NCBI GenBank assembly: GCA_043722155.1
Contig: JAYSPJ010000186.1
Location: 1 to 48,448, forward strand
DNA: 48,448 nucleotides
Source: Bradyrhizobium sp.
Lineage (GTDB): Bacteria; Pseudomonadota; Alphaproteobacteria; Rhizobiales; Xanthobacteraceae
Reading direction: 5' to 3'
In this document: in pieces, positions 26,675-44,516 of the stretch
Layout of the letters: each line of letters begins with the position of its first letter
Position numbering within the stretch: the stretch's first letter is position 1
Program-made: the position numbers and the translations under genes
Notes under the pieces: generated by a model
Databases searched by the model: none
The model's input: only the letters and a program-made list of their open reading frames with translations
Told to the model about the DNA's origin: nothing

Positions 26675-28030
26675 ATGGAAACCAAACCGCCTGTTCCGCG
26701 CGCGATCCTGGTCGGCGTCCAGCTCCCTGATGTCGACGATGTCATGCATGCCGCGAGCCTCGGGGAACTCGGCCGCCTGGTGAAGACTCTCGGCTATGAG
26801 GTCGTCGGCACGGTGTCGCAGAAGCGCGTCGATATTGGCGGCGGGACGGTGCTCGGCAAGGGGCGGCTTGAGGAACTCGCGGCGATGACCGGCGGAACCG
26901 GCGTGGTCGAATCGATGGCGCCCACCCGCAAGTCGAAGGCCCGCGATCGCTTTGACGACACCGGCAGGAAGCCCGTTATTCCGTCCACCGAGACCGACGC
27001 GCCGCCGCAGCGGAAACCGGAGTTCGTGATCGTCGATCACGAGATATCGCCGAGCCAGGCCCGCAACCTCGAGCGAGCCACCGGCGCGCAGGTGCTCGAC
27101 CGCACCGGGGTGATCGTCGAGATATTCCATCGCCATGCGCACAGCCGCGAGGCCAAGCTGCAGGTCGAGATCGCGCGGCTGAAATACGTCTCGCCGCGGC
27201 TGCGGGAATCGTCGGGCGGTGGCGGGCGGCAGCAGGGGCCGGGCGCGGGCGAAACCGATCTCGAAGTCGACCGCCGCAAGGTCCGCGACCGCCTCGCGGA
27301 GCTGAAAGAACAACTGGAGAGCATCCAGCGCGATAGCGACGAGCGCCGGTCCGCGCGCCGCGACCAGCTCCGCGTCGCGCTGGTCGGCTACACCAACGCA
27401 GGCAAGTCGTCGCTGATGCGAGCGCTCACCGGCAGCGAGGTGCTGGTCGAGGACAAGCTGTTCGCGACGCTGGACACGACGGTGCGCGCGCTGCAGCCGG
27501 AGACCAGACCGCGCGTGCTGGTCTCGGACACGGTCGGATTCATCAAGAAGCTGCCGCACGATCTCGTCGCCTCGTTCCGCTCCACGCTCGCCGAAGCGCT
27601 GGAAGCGTCGCTGTTGCTGTTCGTCGTCGATGCCTCCGATCCGACTTACGAATCGCAGCTCGAGGTGAGCCGCAACGTGCTCAAGGAGATCGGCGCGGAC
27701 GCCGTTCCGTCGCGCCTGCTGCTGAACAAGATCGATCGCGTGAGCGAAGAAGATCGCGCCGCGCTGTGCGCGAAACATCCCGACGCGATCCTGCTCTCCG
27801 CGACGTCGGCGCAAGACGTGGCCTCGCTGCGCGAGACCATCATCGCGTTCTTCGAGGCCTCGATGGTGGAGGACCAACTGGTGCTGCCCTATGCGAAGCA
27901 GGGACTGCTGAGCGATGTCTATGAGAACGCCCGCGTGCTTTCCGAGGACTACGACGCCACCGGCCGGATCATCAGGGTCCGCGGCCTGCCGGCCGCGATC
28001 GCGCGACTGCGGAGAGCACTGGCGGGTTAG
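26675..28030 (+). CDS. hflX: GTPase HflX (atypical paralog)
   Basis: DRTGVIVEIF, EAKLQVEIARL, GAGETDLEVDRR, G1 GYTNAGKS, LFATLD, G3 DTVGFI, G4 NKID. Confidence 0.92.
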   Translation: METKPPVPRAILVGVQLPDVDDVMHAASLGELGRLVKTLGYEVVGTVSQKRVDIGGGTVLGKGRLEELAAMTGGTGVVESMAPTRKSKARDRFDDTGRKPVIPSTETDAPPQRKPEFVIVDHEISPSQARNLERATGAQVLDRTGVIVEIFHRHAHSREAKLQVEIARLKYVSPRLRESSGGGGRQQGPGAGETDLEVDRRKVRDRLAELKEQLESIQRDSDERRSARRDQLRVALVGYTNAGKSSLMRALTGSEVLVEDKLFATLDTTVRALQPETRPRVLVSDTVGFIKKLPHDLVASFRSTLAEALEASLLLFVVDASDPTYESQLEVSRNVLKEIGADAVPSRLLLNKIDRVSEEDRAALCAKHPDAILLSATSAQDVASLRETIIAFFEASMVEDQLVLPYAKQGLLSDVYENARVLSEDYDATGRIIRVRGLPAAIARLRRALAG

Positions 28031-28073
28031 GGGAGGGAAGCCACCATCGAGGGCCGCTTTGCTCTTCTTGACC

Positions 28074-28835
28074 TTAGGCTGCGTTTGCTAGCCGAATAAT
28101 CCGCTCTTTGCTCTCGTCGTCGTCGATGACGTTCGCGGACCTGGAAAGCACGGTAAGCAGCGTTCCGAGTTCTTTCTTGTTGTGTACCACGGCCACCCGC
28201 TGTGGCGCGTGGTCTTTAAGTAAGGCAATGTCCCCGAACTTCATTGATGCGTTCGCGACGGAATTCGGATGCTTGGTCACCGGCTCAAAGATCGTCGGCC
28301 GTGTGTTCGGCAATCGGACCACAGTAGCGAATTGCCACTTTTGGTTTGAAGCTCCGACAATCTCCACATTCTTACTGACTATCTTCGGTTCGAATACTTG
28401 GATGAGTCGTTCATAGAGGCGTGTCTTACGATCTTCGAATGTCTTCTCGGCGAGCGCGTCGGCCGCTCGCATGGCGGCGTGCTGCGAGCAGTTGGCGATT
28501 GTGACAACCGCGCCAGCAAGTTGCTCTCGCGACGCTTCGAGCAGGAAGAATGCTTGATTGTCGAACTTAACACCGGCTTCCAAAGCTATCGCATGCGCTG
28601 GCTTCGAGTACATCAGACCTGCACCCATCAACTCGGCCTCTTGAAAGCCATAACCGTAGTCAGAGACGAAGAAGCGGTTGTCGCCGTGTTCGATCCTGAC
28701 GACTACTGTTGATCCGCTTGGATACATCAGGGGCGTGCGAATGAACGACCCTCCGACGCGATGCTCCGTGGCAACGATCTCGCGTGCGACGTCGTCTACT
28801 AGGTGATTGAATTTCTGGATGTCAGCGGTGCTCAT
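28074..28835 (-). CDS. Hypothetical protein, DUF1828/DUF1829-like
   Basis: IRTPLMYPSGSTVVV, FFVSDYG N-terminal motifs; IVGASNQKWQF C-terminal motif; ATG 8 nt after the upstream stop. Confidence 0.65.
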   Translation of the reverse strand: MSTADIQKFNHLVDDVAREIVATEHRVGGSFIRTPLMYPSGSTVVVRIEHGDNRFFVSDYGYGFQEAELMGAGLMYSKPAHAIALEAGVKFDNQAFFLLEASREQLAGAVVTIANCSQHAAMRAADALAEKTFEDRKTRLYERLIQVFEPKIVSKNVEIVGASNQKWQFATVVRLPNTRPTIFEPVTKHPNSVANASMKFGDIALLKDHAPQRVAVVHNKKELGTLLTVLSRSANVIDDDESKERIIRLANAA

Positions 28836-28843
28836 GATCTGGT

Positions 28844-29353
28844 TCAGACGAGTGTCGGTTCCCAAGGGGGCACTTCGATCCACTCTATATTCGTGATTCT
28901 GAAGTCTTCCTTCACGAATTCGAGCAGGGCGTCAAAATTCTTCGGGCTTTTAGTCAACGGGACGGCGATTGGAAGGTTTCCGGCCTCGGTAAGCTCCTTA
29001 TGCGCATACTTCCAGTTCAGGTCGAACGGGTGGCGATGGCAGCCATTGATGAGCTTGTTTTGAAACTGCTTTGGGCCGCGTCCCCTATTGTTGTGCCCTC
29101 GCAGCGGCCTCCACTCGATCCGGGCGAGGGGGCCACCGCGTTCGTTCGGTGGATGGTACTCAAGCTGGACCGTCACCAATTCGTCGGGCATGCGCTTTCG
29201 CGCGACGGCTCGGAAGTTCAATCCCTCGATCACGGTCCCGTCGATCTCCAGCGGACAATAGACCTCTAGTAGGTCGCCGTCGCGCTCGCCCCACGCCGGT
29301 TCCACCGCGAGCATCTTCTCCGATGCGAACAAGGTTTCGAGATCTATCGGCAT
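28844..29353 (-). CDS. Hypothetical His-motif protein, DUF6978-like
   Basis: LARIEW...GHNN...INGCHRHPF pattern; same strand and tightly linked to the DUF1828-like gene. Confidence 0.6.
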   Translation of the reverse strand: MPIDLETLFASEKMLAVEPAWGERDGDLLEVYCPLEIDGTVIEGLNFRAVARKRMPDELVTVQLEYHPPNERGGPLARIEWRPLRGHNNRGRGPKQFQNKLINGCHRHPFDLNWKYAHKELTEAGNLPIAVPLTKSPKNFDALLEFVKEDFRITNIEWIEVPPWEPTLV

Positions 29354-29545
29354 ACGGCCCCGTCGGGCCGCCACTCAATATGCGTTCAGCCCTATAGCGC
29401 AACCCGTTGTTGCGGTAACGACAAAATAATTCCCCTTAGTTGGTGGGTGTTCGCCGGAACGAGTCAACAGTTTACCCAGCGGCTAACCCCAGCGAAATCT
29501 GATCTTACCGATGCACCGGATCAACATCTAAGTAGTTGATATCAT

Positions 29546-39704: not shown

Positions 39705-40457
39705 TCACTTGCTCGGCGCCCGGCAATTATACGCCTTTCGAAATCCCGAGGCCTGGGCATCTTCCTCGGAGCAAAACCATCGGTTCGGCTCCGTCATGCC
39801 GGGGTAACTGCGGCATCCCTGCAAGTGATAGACGCCCACGTTCCCGGTGACGCGGGCACGCACCGCGAATTTGCCCTTGATGCTGCAACCCGGCGGCATC
39901 ACGGGATGCTCGGGAAACAGCACCGCGCGGATCTCGTGGTCCTTGTCCGGCCTGCATGAATCGCCCAGCAGGGCGCCGTCCTTGCGTCCGCGGCGAAATT
40001 CGTAAGGCGCTGCAAAACAGCCTTTCCAAAGTCCCCGGCGGTTGTCCTTAGCGCCGGCCTCGTCGTCCTTGAACCGGCCTCTGGCGTAGGGTTCGAAGTT
40101 CAGCGCAAATCCCTGGCGGACAACGAGCTGGTTCAGGGTGGACGTCTCGCCATCGACGGTACAAATGCCGATATGGCGGATCCTGTTTATTGCGCCCACC
40201 CCGAGATCCTCGCAGCGCACCGCGCGGCCGCCGATCAATTTGGTCAGTTGATCGCGCGCTTCGACGCCGCAGGCCCATGCATCGGCGTGCTCGTCGATGC
40301 ACATCTGGTCAAGCTCCGGCGCATCGATGCCGTCGAGCCGGTAGGTCACGCCAGCCAGCCGAAGGGTGCCGCCGTCCTTGACGACCACGCCGGCGGCCCA
40401 GCTCTGGCCCGCCCAGAGAACTGTCAGTATCAGGATTAGGGAACGCATCCAGGCCAT
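39705..40457 (-). CDS. Thermonuclease (SNase-like) family exported protein with C-terminal Cys-rich domain
   Basis: Signal peptide; [35 protein letters not shown]...YH...[16 protein letters not shown]. Confidence 0.88.
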
Positions 40458-41278: not shown

Positions 41279-41414
41279 GCCTGTTGGCAACCCGACTTCA
41301 GGACCCTTCCGGGCGACGTTCGTGGAAACTCCGGCCGCTCGCTTTCGATCAAGCCGCGTGTCGACCGTCGACCTGCCAAACGCCACGCACCGGTTGACTT
41401 CGGCGATATTATAC

Positions 41415-41443
41415 TTGCCGTACCCATGGAACCGGGCTATATC
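41415..41443 (+). promoter_or_regulatory. Putative sigma70 promoter for the cargo operon, -35 within the TIR
   Basis: TTGCCG-N17-TATATC (cTTG...cTATAT, alphaproteobacterial consensus-like). Confidence 0.55.
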
Positions 41444-41514
41444 GCAAAGCGAGCGGGGGTTAAGCTATGACCCCTTCTGATTGCGCCCGCCCCTATACCC
41501 CGACTGGCTATCAA

Positions 41515-42582
41515 ATGATCCGCTCGGTAAACCTCCGGAATTTCCGAAGTTTTGACGCGGCTGTCCTTCAGGACTGCCGGAGGCTCAACGTGATTGTGGG
41601 AGAAAACGGGAGCGGAAAGACTGCCTTACTTGAAGGAATTTTCTTAGCTGCCGGTCCAAGCCCTGAAATAGCACTTCGGACCCGATCTTGGCGCGGCTAT
41701 GAGCAGGAACGCTTTCAGGGGACCGACGAACAAGTTGAGGAGGCCCTTTGGGCCGATCTATTCCACAAGTTTGATATGAAGGCGTCCGCCGAAATAGCCT
41801 TGCAGGGGGACACCGATCACAATCGCTCGGTCGAAATTACCTTCAGCGAGGGAACCGCCACGGATTTTAAGCTTAACCGCCGGGCTCGACGTGCGGGCTT
41901 ACTCGTCAAAGATGTTCCGCCGCAAGTTGAATTCACCTGGACCGTTCCCAATCATGAACCATTCTCGATCAACCCTGTGCTGGAAGATGGGCGGCTGAAG
42001 GTCGGCAAGGTGCCGAGGTCTCATGTTAAGGCGCACTTCTTTGCGGCAAACCGCACCTTTTCAGGATTAGAGACCGCTAATCGGTTCTCGATGTTGAGCC
42101 GCACTAAGAAATCGGACGCCTTTGTAGAAATGTTCTGCCGGCACTTCCCGAACATTTTGGATTTGTCCGTTGAGGTGAGTGCAGGCGCGGCGATGCTCTT
42201 TGCTGAAGTGAAGGATGTGCCGGAAAAAATTCCGCTAAGTCTTGCTTCGGGAGGGATGAACAAGCTGGCTGCCATGCTTCTGGCTATGCCAGCGCAGCCC
42301 CGCAGTATTGTCTTGATTGATGAAATCGAAAACGGCGTTCATTACGCGCGCCTGCCCAAGATATGGGAAAGCCTGTTCGAGCAGGCAAAGGAAACCGATT
42401 CTCAGGTGTTTGTTTCCACTCATAGCAACGAGTGTCTCAACGCAATTGCGGAAGTCGCGAGGGCAAACGCCCAAGATATATCGATAATCCACTCTCAGCT
42501 TCGCAAAGGAGCTAGCGAGCTGGAGCAGTATGACGGCGAGACTTTCCTTGCTGCCATGGAAGAGAATATCGAGATCAGATGA
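41515..42582 (+). CDS. ABC-type AAA family ATPase (AAA_15/AAA_21-like)
   Basis: MIRSVNLRNFRSF, Walker A GENGSGKT, signature-like ASGGM, Walker B/D-loop VLIDEIENG, H-loop STHS. Confidence 0.9.
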   Translation: MIRSVNLRNFRSFDAAVLQDCRRLNVIVGENGSGKTALLEGIFLAAGPSPEIALRTRSWRGYEQERFQGTDEQVEEALWADLFHKFDMKASAEIALQGDTDHNRSVEITFSEGTATDFKLNRRARRAGLLVKDVPPQVEFTWTVPNHEPFSINPVLEDGRLKVGKVPRSHVKAHFFAANRTFSGLETANRFSMLSRTKKSDAFVEMFCRHFPNILDLSVEVSAGAAMLFAEVKDVPEKIPLSLASGGMNKLAAMLLAMPAQPRSIVLIDEIENGVHYARLPKIWESLFEQAKETDSQVFVSTHSNECLNAIAEVARANAQDISIIHSQLRKGASELEQYDGETFLAAMEENIEIR

Positions 42583-43268
42583 GGCGGGTGCCAGCCGATA
42601 CGTTCGATAGGCCGTGGCTTCTGCTCTGCGAGGGAGACGCAGATAAAAAATTCTTTGATCGACTTCTTAGACATCACGCCATATCGCCGGGCATGTTCGA
42701 TGTTCACTTTCCGGCACGCAACGATGACGCTACCGGAGGACGCGGAAAGTTTGGCGCTTTCCTAAGGACTATCCACAAGACCTCACCCTCCTTTCGAGAG
42801 AATGTGAAGGCTGTCTTGATTGTTTCCGACAACGACGACGACATGCAGGAGTCGTTTCGTCTCGTTAAGGCGGGGCTTGAGCAGTCGGGAGGATTTGGTA
42901 TTCCTGATGCTGAACGGGTCGTTGCTAGATCTGAAGGATATCCCCTCGTCGTCGTCGTAATGATCCCGATGGGGACGCTCGGCAATCTCGAAACGATTGC
43001 TTTAGAAGCCGCCTACAGCAAGTGGGAAATAAAACCGGCCCTAGATGCCTATGTTAATGCGACACCTGCTGCAGGCTGGAGCGTCGGGAAGCAGTCGAAG
43101 ATGCGAATGCACGCGCTGCTAGCCGCCACAGTCGAAACGAAACCAGAGTCGTCTTTCGCTCACCATTGGCAGGAGCGAGAAGAATTTCACATTCCCCTCG
43201 ATCACGAAGCATACAATGATCTGGTGCTGTTTCTCATGGGCTTCGAAGAGCTAATCGGCGACGCCTGA
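42579..43268 (+). CDS. TOPRIM-like putative nuclease (DUF3226-like)
   Basis: LLCEGDAD, VSDNDDD (DxD) and GNLE motifs; ATGA overlap with the ATPase stop codon. Confidence 0.75.
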   Translation: MRRVPADTFDRPWLLLCEGDADKKFFDRLLRHHAISPGMFDVHFPARNDDATGGRGKFGAFLRTIHKTSPSFRENVKAVLIVSDNDDDMQESFRLVKAGLEQSGGFGIPDAERVVARSEGYPLVVVVMIPMGTLGNLETIALEAAYSKWEIKPALDAYVNATPAAGWSVGKQSKMRMHALLAATVETKPESSFAHHWQEREEFHIPLDHEAYNDLVLFLMGFEELIGDA

Positions 43269-43436
43269 TTTTCTTGCTGGCGTTCGCAGGATGCCTATTA
43301 GAGATTTTTCGAAAGTCTTTCCGCTTTCATCAACGCCAATCTCCCGAGCGGCTTCTATGAACCGCTCGGATTGCTCTTTGTCAGTTAGCTTAGGCTTTGC
43401 CTTTTGCTTTTTTGGCACGCCTGCTTTCTTCGCCAT
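43251..43436 (-). CDS. Small hypothetical protein downstream of the IS1595 transposase
   Basis: Lys-rich N-terminus then EQSERFIEAAREIGVDE; starts 14 nt after the transposase stop. Confidence 0.65.
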   Translation of the reverse strand: MAKKAGVPKKQKAKPKLTDKEQSERFIEAAREIGVDESGKTFEKSLIGILRTPARKSGVAD

Positions 43437-43450
43437 AGGGCGCGGTCCCC

Positions 43451-44425
43451 TTAATTAACCGTTTGATATTTGAGACGCTTGCCACGGACACCTTTGAGCG
43501 CCTTCTCAGCGCGGGCAACATCGCCAACGCCGAGCGCGATACGGTTGGAATAGCGGAAGTCAAACTCAGAGAGATAGCGGTGCAGGTGCTTCTCGGAGCA
43601 ATGCTGATAGACGCCCTTCATGCCGCGCTTGAAGACCGAATAGAAGCCTTCAACGGTGTTGGTAGTGATGACGGTAGTTTCGACAACCGGCTTCCCATCG
43701 GGACGCATTTTGTCGGTCGCTTCGTTCCAGTAACGAACGTATTGGTCCGCACTGTGATTGACAACATCGTGCTTCATGCCTTGGGTTTCGGCGACCACCT
43801 TGTAAGCCTTGGCTTCGTCGGTCATCAAGTGTGCATTCTTGCTAACGTTCGCCTTGATGATTGGCAGAATGTCGCCAGCGCTCACGCCGTCAATGTGAAA
43901 GCTGCGAGCGGGGCCGCCGCGCTCTACCAGGGTCAGAACAATATTTTTGTGCGCCGAGCCGCGTTTTTTCTCAACGCCCTCGACTCTGCCGACGTAGGTT
44001 TCGTCAACCTCAACCGCGCCGCCGTCCGAACCCATCAAGGGGGTGAAAGGGCCGCCGACGCGCATCGCTTCGCGAATGCGATGGGAGATGAACCAAGCGG
44101 TTTTGAGGGTGCAGCCGAGAGTGCGGTGAAGCTGGTTACTGCTGATGCCCTTCTTTGAGGACGACATCAGGAAGATCGCCTGCAGCCAATGGCGCATCGG
44201 TACGTGGCTTGCTTCAAAGATGGTGCCGATCTTCACGGTGAAGGGCTTGCGGCACTGGTAGCACTTGTAGGCGCCAATCCGGGTGCTCTTGCCGCCCATC
44301 TTGGAAATGCGCTCCACACCCCCGCAATGCGGGCAGACGGGGCCATTGGGCCAGAGCCGGGCTTCTACGAAAGCGTAGGCGGCGGCCTCGTTGTGGAAGT
44401 GCTTGTCCGAAAGAACCGATTTCAT
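43451..44425 (-). CDS. IS1595 family DDE transposase
   Basis: Zn ribbon WPNGPVCPHCG...YKCYQCRKPFTV, KKGISS HTH, VEVDETY, LMTDE, VNHS, NTVEGFYS, YLSEFDFRY; frame intact. Confidence 0.95.
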   Translation of the reverse strand: MKSVLSDKHFHNEAAAYAFVEARLWPNGPVCPHCGGVERISKMGGKSTRIGAYKCYQCRKPFTVKIGTIFEASHVPMRHWLQAIFLMSSSKKGISSNQLHRTLGCTLKTAWFISHRIREAMRVGGPFTPLMGSDGGAVEVDETYVGRVEGVEKKRGSAHKNIVLTLVERGGPARSFHIDGVSAGDILPIIKANVSKNAHLMTDEAKAYKVVAETQGMKHDVVNHSADQYVRYWNEATDKMRPDGKPVVETTVITTNTVEGFYSVFKRGMKGVYQHCSEKHLHRYLSEFDFRYSNRIALGVGDVARAEKALKGVRGKRLKYQTVN

Positions 44426-44446
44426 GACGAATCCCCTTGTGCCGCA

Positions 44447-44475
44447 ACCATAAGTCAGTGGTTTGGGTACGTCAA
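44447..44475 (-). promoter_or_regulatory. Putative transposase promoter, -35 within the TIR
   Basis: Minus strand TTGACG-N17-TATGGT ending about 22 nt before the ATG at 44425. Confidence 0.6.
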
Positions 44476-44501
44476 GTATAATATTCCGGTTGACTTCGTA
44501 A

Positions 44502-44516
44502 GAACAAAAGAAGAAC
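44502..44516 (+). promoter_or_regulatory. Alphaproteobacterial LexA (SOS) box
   Basis: GAAC-aaaagaa-GAAC matches GAAC-N7-GAAC; lies 6 nt after a TTGACT -35-like hexamer. Confidence 0.7.

What the first reader, a model, noticed from the sequence alone, without database searches (positions are those of the whole stretch)
41515..43268. Transposon-borne ABC-ATPase plus TOPRIM (DUF3226-like) operon: candidate anti-phage system
Seen: translationally coupled (ATGA) pair, visibly lower GC than the host, wholly inside the IS ends; the ATPase has Walker A, signature, Walker B/D-loop and H-loop with no transporter partner; the second protein has TOPRIM-type EGxxD and DxD motifs. Established: ABC-ATPase plus TOPRIM architecture underlies PARIS (AriA/AriB), OLD nucleases and Gabija GajA. 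Inference: a split sensor-ATPase/nuclease-effector system, possibly distinct from PARIS because the effector looks DUF3226-like rather than DUF4435, spreading as IS1595 cargo. This is the best candidate for an undescribed system in the window.
Basis: partly seen in the sequence, partly recalled or inferred. Interest (0 to 1): 0.85.

Follow-up and report, generated by a model that had tools for sequence, protein, structure and literature searches.

The report
Jumping gene carrying untested defence pair
A 3.1-kb jumping gene carries two linked genes, an ATPase and a predicted nuclease, that likely make a phage-infected cell shut itself down; the pair is a divergent branch of a catalogued but untested candidate defence family, not a new kind of system.

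Summary
An ABC ATPase (probably starting at 41467, not 41515) overlaps by ATGA a DUF3226 protein whose model has the OLD/AriB TOPRIM fold and five conserved acidic residues. Both lie inside an intact 3,087-bp IS1595 element with inverted ends and a 9-bp target duplication. Contigs of two runs show the probable empty site, so the insertion looks recent. The pair is not PARIS (no DUF4435; the model lacks AriA's coiled-coil bundle) and not AbiL proper (no RloB). It is a divergent branch of ATPase+DUF3226, which PADLOC lists as the untested candidate PDC-M38: about 2,500 clusters, ATPase always upstream, even on 4.7-kb E. coli plasmids. IS carriage is real but partial: 3 of 19 other loci. The element sits 4 bp from a LexA box, like 7 of 25 relatives. 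Best reading, inferred by analogy: a PARIS/AbiL-like toxin-antitoxin abortive system whose nuclease likely cuts tRNA. Nothing functional was tested, and the complex predictor was unavailable. The scan noted this family and LexA-targeting IS1595 before on other DNA. New variant of a known kind.

The parts
41393..41401 (+). Left copy of the target-site duplication (GTTGACTTC); holds the host's TTGACT -35-like hexamer
   Evidence: a 13-mer is shared by both junctions and occurs only twice in the genome, so the exact ends can shift (duplication 8-10 bp)
41402..41426 (+). Cargo-side terminal inverted repeat of the IS1595 element
   Evidence: I9, 21 nt, 95% complementary; score 23.4 on a matrix built from 22 ends of other elements, shuffles at most 10.3
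41415..41443 (+). Predicted inward promoter of the operon: TTGCCG inside the repeat, 17 nt, TATATC (inferred)
   Evidence: sequence; same spacing in G486; NOT listed by the consensus scan
41467..42582 (+). OLD-type ABC ATPase, 371 aa (355 aa from 41515); AAA_21; predicted sensor/antitoxin
42579..43268 (+). DUF3226 TOPRIM-fold protein, 229 aa; predicted nuclease effector (E18, D22, D84, D86, E138)
43251..43436 (-). 61-aa ORF behind the transposase, conserved in this IS1595 group; function unknown
   Evidence: homologues at 16 other distinct loci; no PADLOC hit
43451..44425 (-). IS1595-family transposase, 324 aa, intact
   Evidence: Pfam DDE_Tnp_IS1595 E 6e-31 and Zn ribbon; NCBIfam NF033547 182 bits, cut-off 75
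44447..44475 (-). Predicted transposase promoter TTGACG-17-TATGGT, -35 inside the repeat
   Evidence: 2 sites found, 1.8 expected by chance, so weak on its own
44464..44488 (-). Transposase-side terminal inverted repeat
44489..44497 (+). Right copy of the target-site duplication (GTTGACTTC)
44502..44516 (+). Host LexA-type box GAAC-N7-GAAC, 4 bp beyond the duplication, ahead of a small host gene (44517/44544-44759)
   Evidence: only such box in the window; motif from PMC3323433 passage; conserved without an IS in 6 relatives; lexA present in the genome

Best explanation
An intact IS1595 transporter element carries a two-gene ABC-ATPase plus DUF3226 operon that likely acts as a PARIS/AbiL-like toxin-antitoxin abortive-infection system, in which the ATPase would hold the predicted TOPRIM nuclease inactive until a phage signal would release it to cut host RNA, most likely tRNA. 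Shown: element anatomy, coupled genes, intact ATPase and TOPRIM motifs, constant pairing of the two genes. Predicted by models: both folds, and a compact ATPase without AriA's coiled-coil bundle, so probably a dimer with a trigger other than Ocr-type binding at that site. Inferred: expression from a promoter built into the element's end, binding of the two proteins, toxicity, anti-phage role and the tRNA substrate (about 0.55 given a defence role). The element likely spreads by inserting beside LexA boxes; here the duplication leaves the host SOS promoter's -35 and LexA box in place.
For: Fold of the second protein: best matches PH0156/DUF3226 2p62 (Z 11.8, rmsd 4.1, 191 aligned), Bp OLD 6nk8 (Z 9.3, 5.2, 174), Ts OLD 6p74 (Z 8.0, 3.8, 131), retron Eco2 9i2f (Z 7.4), AriB 8v46 (Z 7.2, 4.5, 168); Foldseek ranks OLD and 2p62 first. 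Five acidic residues conserved in 133-139 of 139, in the same order as AriB E26/D30/D88/E90/E122 (PMC11464382 passage; matched by motif order, not superposition). ATPase directly upstream at 19 of 19 loci found with clade profiles (L001 and L028 look like one sequence) and at 16 of 16 further loci above the Pfam cut-off. Patchy distribution: 2 of 401 genus genomes, 6 of 401 class genomes, own included. Defence neighbours at 3 of 9 loci scanned: CBASS, type ISP R-M, type IV REase. Main cargo of 4.7-kb ColE-type plasmids. Related IS elements carry PIN, HigBA, DUF1828, DUF3800 and KilA-N genes. AriB and P2 OLD cut tRNA (passages); AAA+TOPRIM pairs validated as toxin-antitoxin pairs (PMC10440598 passage).
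Against: No functional test on any DUF3226 pair was found. HEC-01, a sister ATPase+TOPRIM pair, gave no protection in E. coli (Payne et al. passage). 6 of 9 loci have no recognised defence neighbour and there is no background control. Foldseek E-values for the nuclease are only about 1e-3, and Z 7-8 is near the tool's noise level. AriB's ATPase-binding arginines are poorly kept: the position matching R28 is variable and that matching R31 is K/R in 64 of 139. The ATPase model is no closer to AriA (Z 16.8) than to SMC/Rad50 heads (Z 19-19.7). The operon promoter was not picked up by the consensus scan. The substrate rests on analogy only.
Confidence: 0.5

Rival explanations
1. Anti-phage or anti-plasmid, but as a stable ATPase-nuclease complex that senses and cuts DNA (ends, hairpins, replication intermediates) in the manner of GajA or Rad50-Mre11 heads, with no release step.
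For: The ATPase model matches SMC/Rad50 heads best; the nuclease matches OLD C-terminal regions better than AriB; R55, R57 and R60 of insert 1 are near-invariant basic residues; one homologue is a single 574-aa polypeptide (P0269).
Against: No helicase partner; the P0269 junction reads like a one-base frameshift at the gene overlap; P2 OLD turned out to cut tRNA in vivo.
Confidence: 0.2
2. A selfish addiction module that stabilises the IS or plasmid by post-segregational killing, with no role against phage.
For: Carried by an IS and by small plasmids; sister elements carry classical TA pairs such as HigBA and PIN; antitoxin-first coupled order.
Against: Also sits beside R-M and CBASS loci; an ATP-driven sensor is costly for simple addiction; tested ABC+TOPRIM relatives are phage-triggered. 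A probable empty site coexists with the filled one.
Confidence: 0.17
3. A non-defence DNA-repair or RNA-processing pair, or an inert passenger, that merely rides the IS into SOS promoters.
For: The insertion lies beside a LexA box; one homologue lies next to SRAP and an ATP-dependent ligase gene (L031); most loci have ordinary neighbours.
Against: Found in about 0.5% of genus genomes; low GC; the LexA box lies at the far end of the element and faces away from the operon; LexA targeting is shared by elements with unrelated cargo.
Confidence: 0.1

Closest known systems
PADLOC candidate PDC-M38 (PDC set of Payne et al., bioRxiv 10.1101/2024.01.29.577857; 145 untested candidates)
   Same: ABC ATPase followed by a DUF3226 protein; typical DUF3226 pairs hit PDC-M38A/B strongly; this ATPase hits PDC-M38A at E 3e-38; 87 of 139 clade members hit one PDC-M38B model.
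   Different: This nuclease scores only E 4e-4 on PDC-M38B; in a quick tree its clade is separate from the strong PDC-M38 matches (SH-aLRT 95-96); IS1595 carriage. The paper's main text does not name PDC-M38 and its supplement was not readable.
PARIS (AriA/AriB; PMC11464382, PMC10802264, PMC12409363)
   Same: Split ABC ATPase + TOPRIM nuclease, ATPase first, same five acidic residues by motif order.
   Different: Effector is DUF3226 (229 aa), not DUF4435 (about 35 kDa); ATPase is 355-371 aa, not about 55 kDa, and its model has two short helices and a hairpin where AriA has the coiled-coil bundle that builds the hexamer and binds Ocr.
AbiL (AbiLi/AbiLii, Lactococcus; review PMC13064643)
   Same: Two-gene ABC ATPase + TOPRIM abortive system; PADLOC AbiLi model PDLC02336 is the ATPase's best hit, full length, E 1.5e-49.
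   Different: AbiLii is RloB-type; no RloB or AbiLii hit for this protein at E up to 1; the AbiLi model hits all DUF3226-partner ATPases, so it is not specific.
OLD nucleases, Gabija GajA, HEC-01/HEC-04, MADS3-4, NetFlax AAA-TOPRIM TAs
   Same: OLD-type ABC ATPase coupled to a TOPRIM domain.
   Different: Not fused, no helicase or methyltransferase partners; HEC-01B and mad4 models hit only weakly.
IS1595 transporter IS (tIS; Siguier et al. 2009, seen only as a reference; tIS defined in PMC7986276 passage)
   Same: IS1595 transposase, short inverted ends, target duplication, passenger genes.
   Different: Cargo is an ATPase+DUF3226 pair; duplication 9 bp in the family register versus 8 bp in 9 of 12 relatives; target 4 bp from a LexA box, a preference not found in my paper searches.

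Membership tests
Pfam DUF3226 (PF11536) | Score above the gathering cut-off | tested here: met
   44.8 bits vs 27; 139 of 139 members hit at E<=1e-3
TOPRIM/OLD nuclease | Conserved Glu, DxD and TOPRIM fold | tested here: met
   E18, D84-x-D86 conserved; model matches 2p62 Z 11.8 and OLD 6nk8 Z 9.3
TOPRIM/OLD nuclease | Metal-dependent nuclease activity and substrate | not testable with these tools
   needs biochemistry
PDC-M38 | PDC-M38A ATPase | tested here: met
   E 3.3e-38, second to AbiLi
PDC-M38 | PDC-M38B partner | tested here: inconclusive
   E 4e-4 for this protein; 87 of 139 members hit, best 1.9e-12; typical DUF3226 proteins reach 1e-50 or better; PADLOC's own thresholds could not be applied
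PDC-M38 | Adjacent A-B gene pair | tested here: met
PARIS | AAA_15/AAA_21 ABC ATPase | tested here: met
   Pfam AAA_21 and AAA_15; PADLOC AriA E 6e-28
PARIS | DUF4435 (AriB) effector | tested here: not met
   0 of 139 members hit DUF4435 at E<=1e-3; 1 of 139 hits PADLOC AriB, E 2e-4
PARIS | Coiled-coil four-helix bundle that forms the hexamer and binds the trigger | tested here: not met
   AlphaFold model (pLDDT 92) has only helices 184-196 and 200-210 and a hairpin between the Q-loop strand and the signature; a prediction, not a structure
PARIS | Trigger-induced release and tRNA cleavage | not testable with these tools
AbiL | AbiLi-type ATPase | tested here: met
   E 1.5e-49, full length, but the model is broad
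AbiL | AbiLii/RloB effector | tested here: not met
   no hit at E<=1; 4 of 139 members hit weakly, best 5.9e-6
Class 1 OLD / Gabija | ATPase and TOPRIM in one polypeptide; UvrD partner for Gabija | tested here: not met
   two ORFs, no helicase inside the element
IS1595 transporter IS | IS1595 DDE transposase with zinc ribbon | tested here: met
IS1595 transporter IS | Terminal inverted repeats enclosing passenger genes | tested here: met
IS1595 transporter IS | 8-bp target duplication (family value recalled; seen in 9 of 12 relatives) | tested here: inconclusive
   9 bp in the family register; 8 or 10 bp if an end is shifted by one base
'Toprim-TA' of Ragucci et al. (bioRxiv 10.1101/2025.07.10.664194) | Sequence identity of its components | not testable with these tools
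   sequences are not in the main text; the partner is described there as an SF2 helicase, which argues against; supplement closed

The most novel reading that the evidence does not exclude
ATPase+DUF3226 is a large, untested branch of OLD-like immunity with a minimal dimeric sensor that lacks the PARIS trigger site, so it detects a different phage cue and may cut a different RNA. One clade has ridden IS1595 elements for a long time (G486 homologues only 34-37% identical, yet with the same IS-end leader), taking its promoter from the element's end. Those elements home in 4 bp from LexA boxes without breaking the SOS promoter, making an actively moving, safe-landing delivery vehicle for immunity genes.
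Probability: 0.3. Interest if true: 0.68.

Novelty: new variant of a known kind. Interest (0 to 1): 0.42.

Why it matters
If the pair protects, it gives a function to DUF3226, a family of about 2,500 50%-identity clusters in bacteria and archaea with a solved but unexplained structure (PH0156). It would also add a compact sensor type to the PARIS/OLD/AbiL group. A homologous pair on 4.7-kb E. coli plasmids makes the test easy. The element shows how such modules move: a small IS that supplies a promoter and appears to target LexA boxes. A specialist would find the architecture familiar; the interest lies in testability and the mobility details.

Tried and rejected
Complex prediction of ATPase dimer plus nuclease: tool not available, no verdict. 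Protein Atlas: not available for these sequences. Sequence search of solved structures: nothing for the nuclease alone; with the profile only 2p62, E 0.002. No NCBIfam hit for the nuclease. DUF4435/AriB, RloB and HEC-01B structures other than 8v46 are not singled out by the fold searches, which excludes nothing. Viral contigs: 77 pattern matches, 0 confirmed; phage records: no ATPase match; plasmids: no match with the nuclease as query, 5 records with the ATPase. No RNA holder listed. Joints table showed no empty-site joint; the evidence is a 17-nt loose end only. Stretches without contig cover in X3/X4 (44109-44485) were not interpreted, nor were depth differences. A first transposase search near homologous operons found 0 of 19; a later tblastn found a C-terminal piece in L030. 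IR-like sites upstream of the ATPase beat all shuffles at only 2 of 20 other loci tested (L051, L027). Transporter reading rejected: no permease, AAA_21 family. SOS control of the operon rejected: the box lies at the other end. P0269 fusion not counted as support (likely frameshift). The careful tree did not finish; the quick tree was used. Literature: 'DUF3226' 0 papers; 'PDC-M38' 0; PF11536, PH0156 and PDC-M38 absent from the 30 listed of 235; IS1595 with defence terms gave nothing relevant; one search gave 3 papers. Supplement searches of PMC10440598 and PMC11464382 gave 0 hits; the first also missed RloB, so it is weak. Krishnan et al. 2020 was not held and may cover this family. bioRxiv supplements (Payne PDC tables, Ragucci sequences) could not be seen and bear on novelty.

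Full report
OBSERVATION. The two genes are real and coupled: 41467/41515-42582 and 42579-43268 on the + strand, overlapping at ATGA. The first is an ABC ATPase of the AAA_21/AAA_15 type. Its Walker A, signature serine, Walker B and H-loop residues are invariant in 109 of 109 aligned homologues, drawn from the 120 listed of 393 hits. The second scores above the Pfam cut-off for DUF3226. Operon GC is 53.4% against 63.1%; 22 of 4,637 genomic windows are as low. The ATPase probably starts at 41467: a G-rich ribosome site lies 7 nt upstream, the G486 homologue has the same leader, and 47 of 82 homologues with an extension end it in G[YF]x.

THE EFFECTOR. The AlphaFold model (28 sequences, pLDDT 94) matches PH0156/2p62 (Z 11.8, rmsd 4.1, 191 aligned), Bp OLD (Z 9.3), Ts OLD (8.0), retron Eco2 (7.4) and AriB (7.2). 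Only 3 of 48,161 chains reach Z 8, and unrelated folds appear at Z 7-7.8. Foldseek gives the same top ranks at E about 1e-3. In 139 family members (given from the 177 stored hits, fragments and near-duplicates left out) E18, D22, D84, D86 and E138 are kept in 133-139. Their order matches AriB E26, D30, D88, E90, E122 (PMC11464382, passages). The profile finds 2,510 clusters at 50% identity with E<=0.001, 226 with E<=1e-30.

THE ATPASE. The model (pLDDT 92) is a compact SMC/Rad50-like head: Z 19.7 to Smc, 17.3 to PtuA, 17.2 to GajA, 16.8 to AriA and to OLD. Between the Q-loop strand and the signature it has two short helices and a hairpin. AriA there has a coiled-coil four-helix bundle that builds the hexamer and binds Ocr (PMC10802264, passages). 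A dimer with another trigger site is therefore predicted, not shown.

PAIRING AND SPREAD. An ATPase lies directly upstream at 19 of 19 loci found with clade profiles (L001 and L028 appear to be the same sequence; two nuclease genes are split across frames and one is truncated). It does so at 16 of 16 more loci above the Pfam cut-off; of 4 loci below the cut-off, 2 had no ATPase hit. The clade profile finds 2 of 401 genus genomes and 6 of 401 class genomes, own included; PF11536 passes its cut-off in 15 of 301 phylum genomes and in Methanocaldococcus among 14 controls. These are samples with a loose first look. Neighbours were scanned at 9 of 11 long loci (95 picked ORFs): CBASS at L043, type ISP R-M and PDC-M41/M30 at L044, a type IV REase about 5 kb away at L045, prophage-like genes at L031, ordinary genes at five. 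No control was run. A distant pair (24% ATPase identity; hhalign 98.6% for the nuclease) is the main cargo of 4.2-4.7-kb ColE-type plasmids of E. coli and Klebsiella; 9 of 5,426 E. coli genomes match it.

THE ELEMENT. The IS1595 transposase (43451-44425, -) is intact. Inverted ends run 41402-41426 and 44464-44488, flanked by GTTGACTTC twice. Of 24 loci examined for related elements, 13 gave both ends; of the 12 besides this one, 9 have an 8-bp duplication and 3 none. A 61-aa ORF follows the transposase, with homologues at 16 other distinct loci. Each end holds a -35-like hexamer facing inwards; on the cargo side it lies 17 nt from TATATC, with the same spacing in G486. This promoter is inferred, and the consensus scan did not list it. 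The site is a host promoter: six relatives show TTGACT followed by GAAC-N7-GAAC with no IS (6 of 10 loci; L009 from unpublished G016 left out). That motif is the alphaproteobacterial LexA box (PMC3323433, passage) and lexA is present. The duplication leaves the -35 and the box intact on the right. In runs X3 and X4 a contig joins 17 bases identical to the left flank (41373-41389) to 44486 onward, i.e. the empty site, while another contig runs from 41373 into the element; X1 and X2 cross both junctions with no loose end. All four runs are from one study, X3 and X4 may be one data set, and the short side is under 30 bases. A polymorphic, recent insertion is probable, not proven.

IS CARRIAGE OF THE PAIR. 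Three of 19 other loci show IS1595 marks: L030 (transposase C-terminus and small ORF converging on the nuclease), L027 (small ORF; weak end-like site) and L051/G486 (leader 80% identical over 89 nt, small-ORF remnant, no transposase within 19 kb; proteins 37% and 34% identical). Several metagenomic contigs are too short to test. IS-linked and unlinked rows are mixed in the quick tree. None of the 12 related complete elements carries this pair; 29 of their 37 picked ORFs were scanned and gave PIN (2), HigB/HigA, DUF1828 (2), DUF3800, KilA-N and AAA_assoc_C, with only weak PADLOC candidate hits.

LEXA TARGETING. A box with at least 7 of 8 matches starts 12 nt outward (8 + 4) in 7 of the 25 others and 13 nt outward (9 + 4) here; background is 0.04% per position. 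The hits are not independent: four share one target type and two another, leaving about four distinct promoters. The other 18 elements lack it.

WHAT IT IS. Typical DUF3226 proteins match PADLOC PDC-M38B at E 1e-50 to 5e-110 and their partners PDC-M38A. PDCs are 145 untested candidates found embedded in BREX, DISARM and type I R-M loci (Payne et al., passages). This nuclease scores only 4e-4, and its clade is separate in a quick tree. So it is best filed as a divergent ATPase+DUF3226 (PDC-M38-like) pair. It works like PARIS or AbiL by architecture but fails membership of both on the effector family. The general module is well known (PMC11464382; PMC13064643; PMC12839542; bioRxiv 2026.07.10.737580; all passages).

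MECHANISM. By analogy, the ATPase would bind the nuclease at the head-head interface and keep it off; a phage cue would release or open it; the nuclease would cut tRNA and stop translation. AriB and P2 OLD cut tRNA (PMC12409363 and the OLD preprint, passages), and AAA+TOPRIM pairs neutralise as toxin-antitoxins (PMC10440598, passage). I put the whole chain at 0.5 and any anti-invader role at about 0.7.

NOVELTY. No paper in the library names DUF3226 or PDC-M38, but most subscription papers, Krishnan et al. 2020 and bioRxiv supplements were out of reach. Other papers seen as passages without bearing on membership: PMC10568477, PMC7986276, DefensePredictor, and Ragucci et al. (also outline and section 16). 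IS subgroup names and the 8-bp family value are recalled. The scan met this family (e1-2327261) and LexA-targeting IS1595 (e1-4213219) on other DNA. Verdict: real, well-formed and testable; a new variant of a known kind; interest 0.42.

Noticed in passing
window 44489-44516; L015, L017, L100, L102, L104, L105, L108: This IS1595 group inserts 4 bp from LexA boxes in 8 of 26 elements (about four distinct promoter types); L109 has a perfect box 3 bp further out.
   Followed up: partly
window 43251-43436 (-): Unannotated 61-aa basic-then-helical protein directly behind the transposase, conserved at 16 other IS1595 loci; a useful marker of decayed elements.
   Followed up: partly
window 44517/44544-44759 (+): Small host gene with no Pfam hit behind a conserved TTGACT and LexA box in the genus; likely an unknown SOS gene.
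   Followed up: partly
L116:1663-3410 (NZ_CP060973.1) and L115: 4.2-4.7-kb ColE-type plasmids of E. coli and Klebsiella carry an ATPase+DUF3226 pair as main cargo; identical copies in 8 E. coli genomes.
   Followed up: partly
L051 (G486:C1 about 3094700-3096700): Homologous operon with a decayed IS end, the same leader and a remnant of the small ORF but no transposase: a probably immobilised element.
   Followed up: yes
G000 contigs C822, C542, C407 (L025, L024): Three more IS1595 transposases in the same genome (42-61% identity), near contig ends; C407 carries a 199-aa unknown passenger-like ORF.
   Followed up: partly
L015, L019, L022, L023, L102, L103: Sister elements carry varied conflict-type cargo: unknown+PIN pairs, KilA-N+DUF3800, DUF1828 pairs, HigBA; many ORFs have no family.
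   Followed up: partly
L059/L071 (G1009:C199): Two ATPase+DUF3226 operons in tandem.
   Followed up: no
P0269: 574-aa ATPase-DUF3226 fusion whose junction reads like a one-base frameshift at the gene overlap; natural or assembly error unknown.
   Followed up: partly
window about 28000-29500: A second low-GC stretch (55-57%) in the window, not examined.
   Followed up: no
window 39705-40448 (-): ORF that reads like a thermonuclease-type secreted protein upstream of the HAD gene; label from recall, not tested.
   Followed up: no
window 43994, runs X3/X4: A 107-nt loose end inside the transposase points to a related IS variant in the same samples.
   Followed up: no
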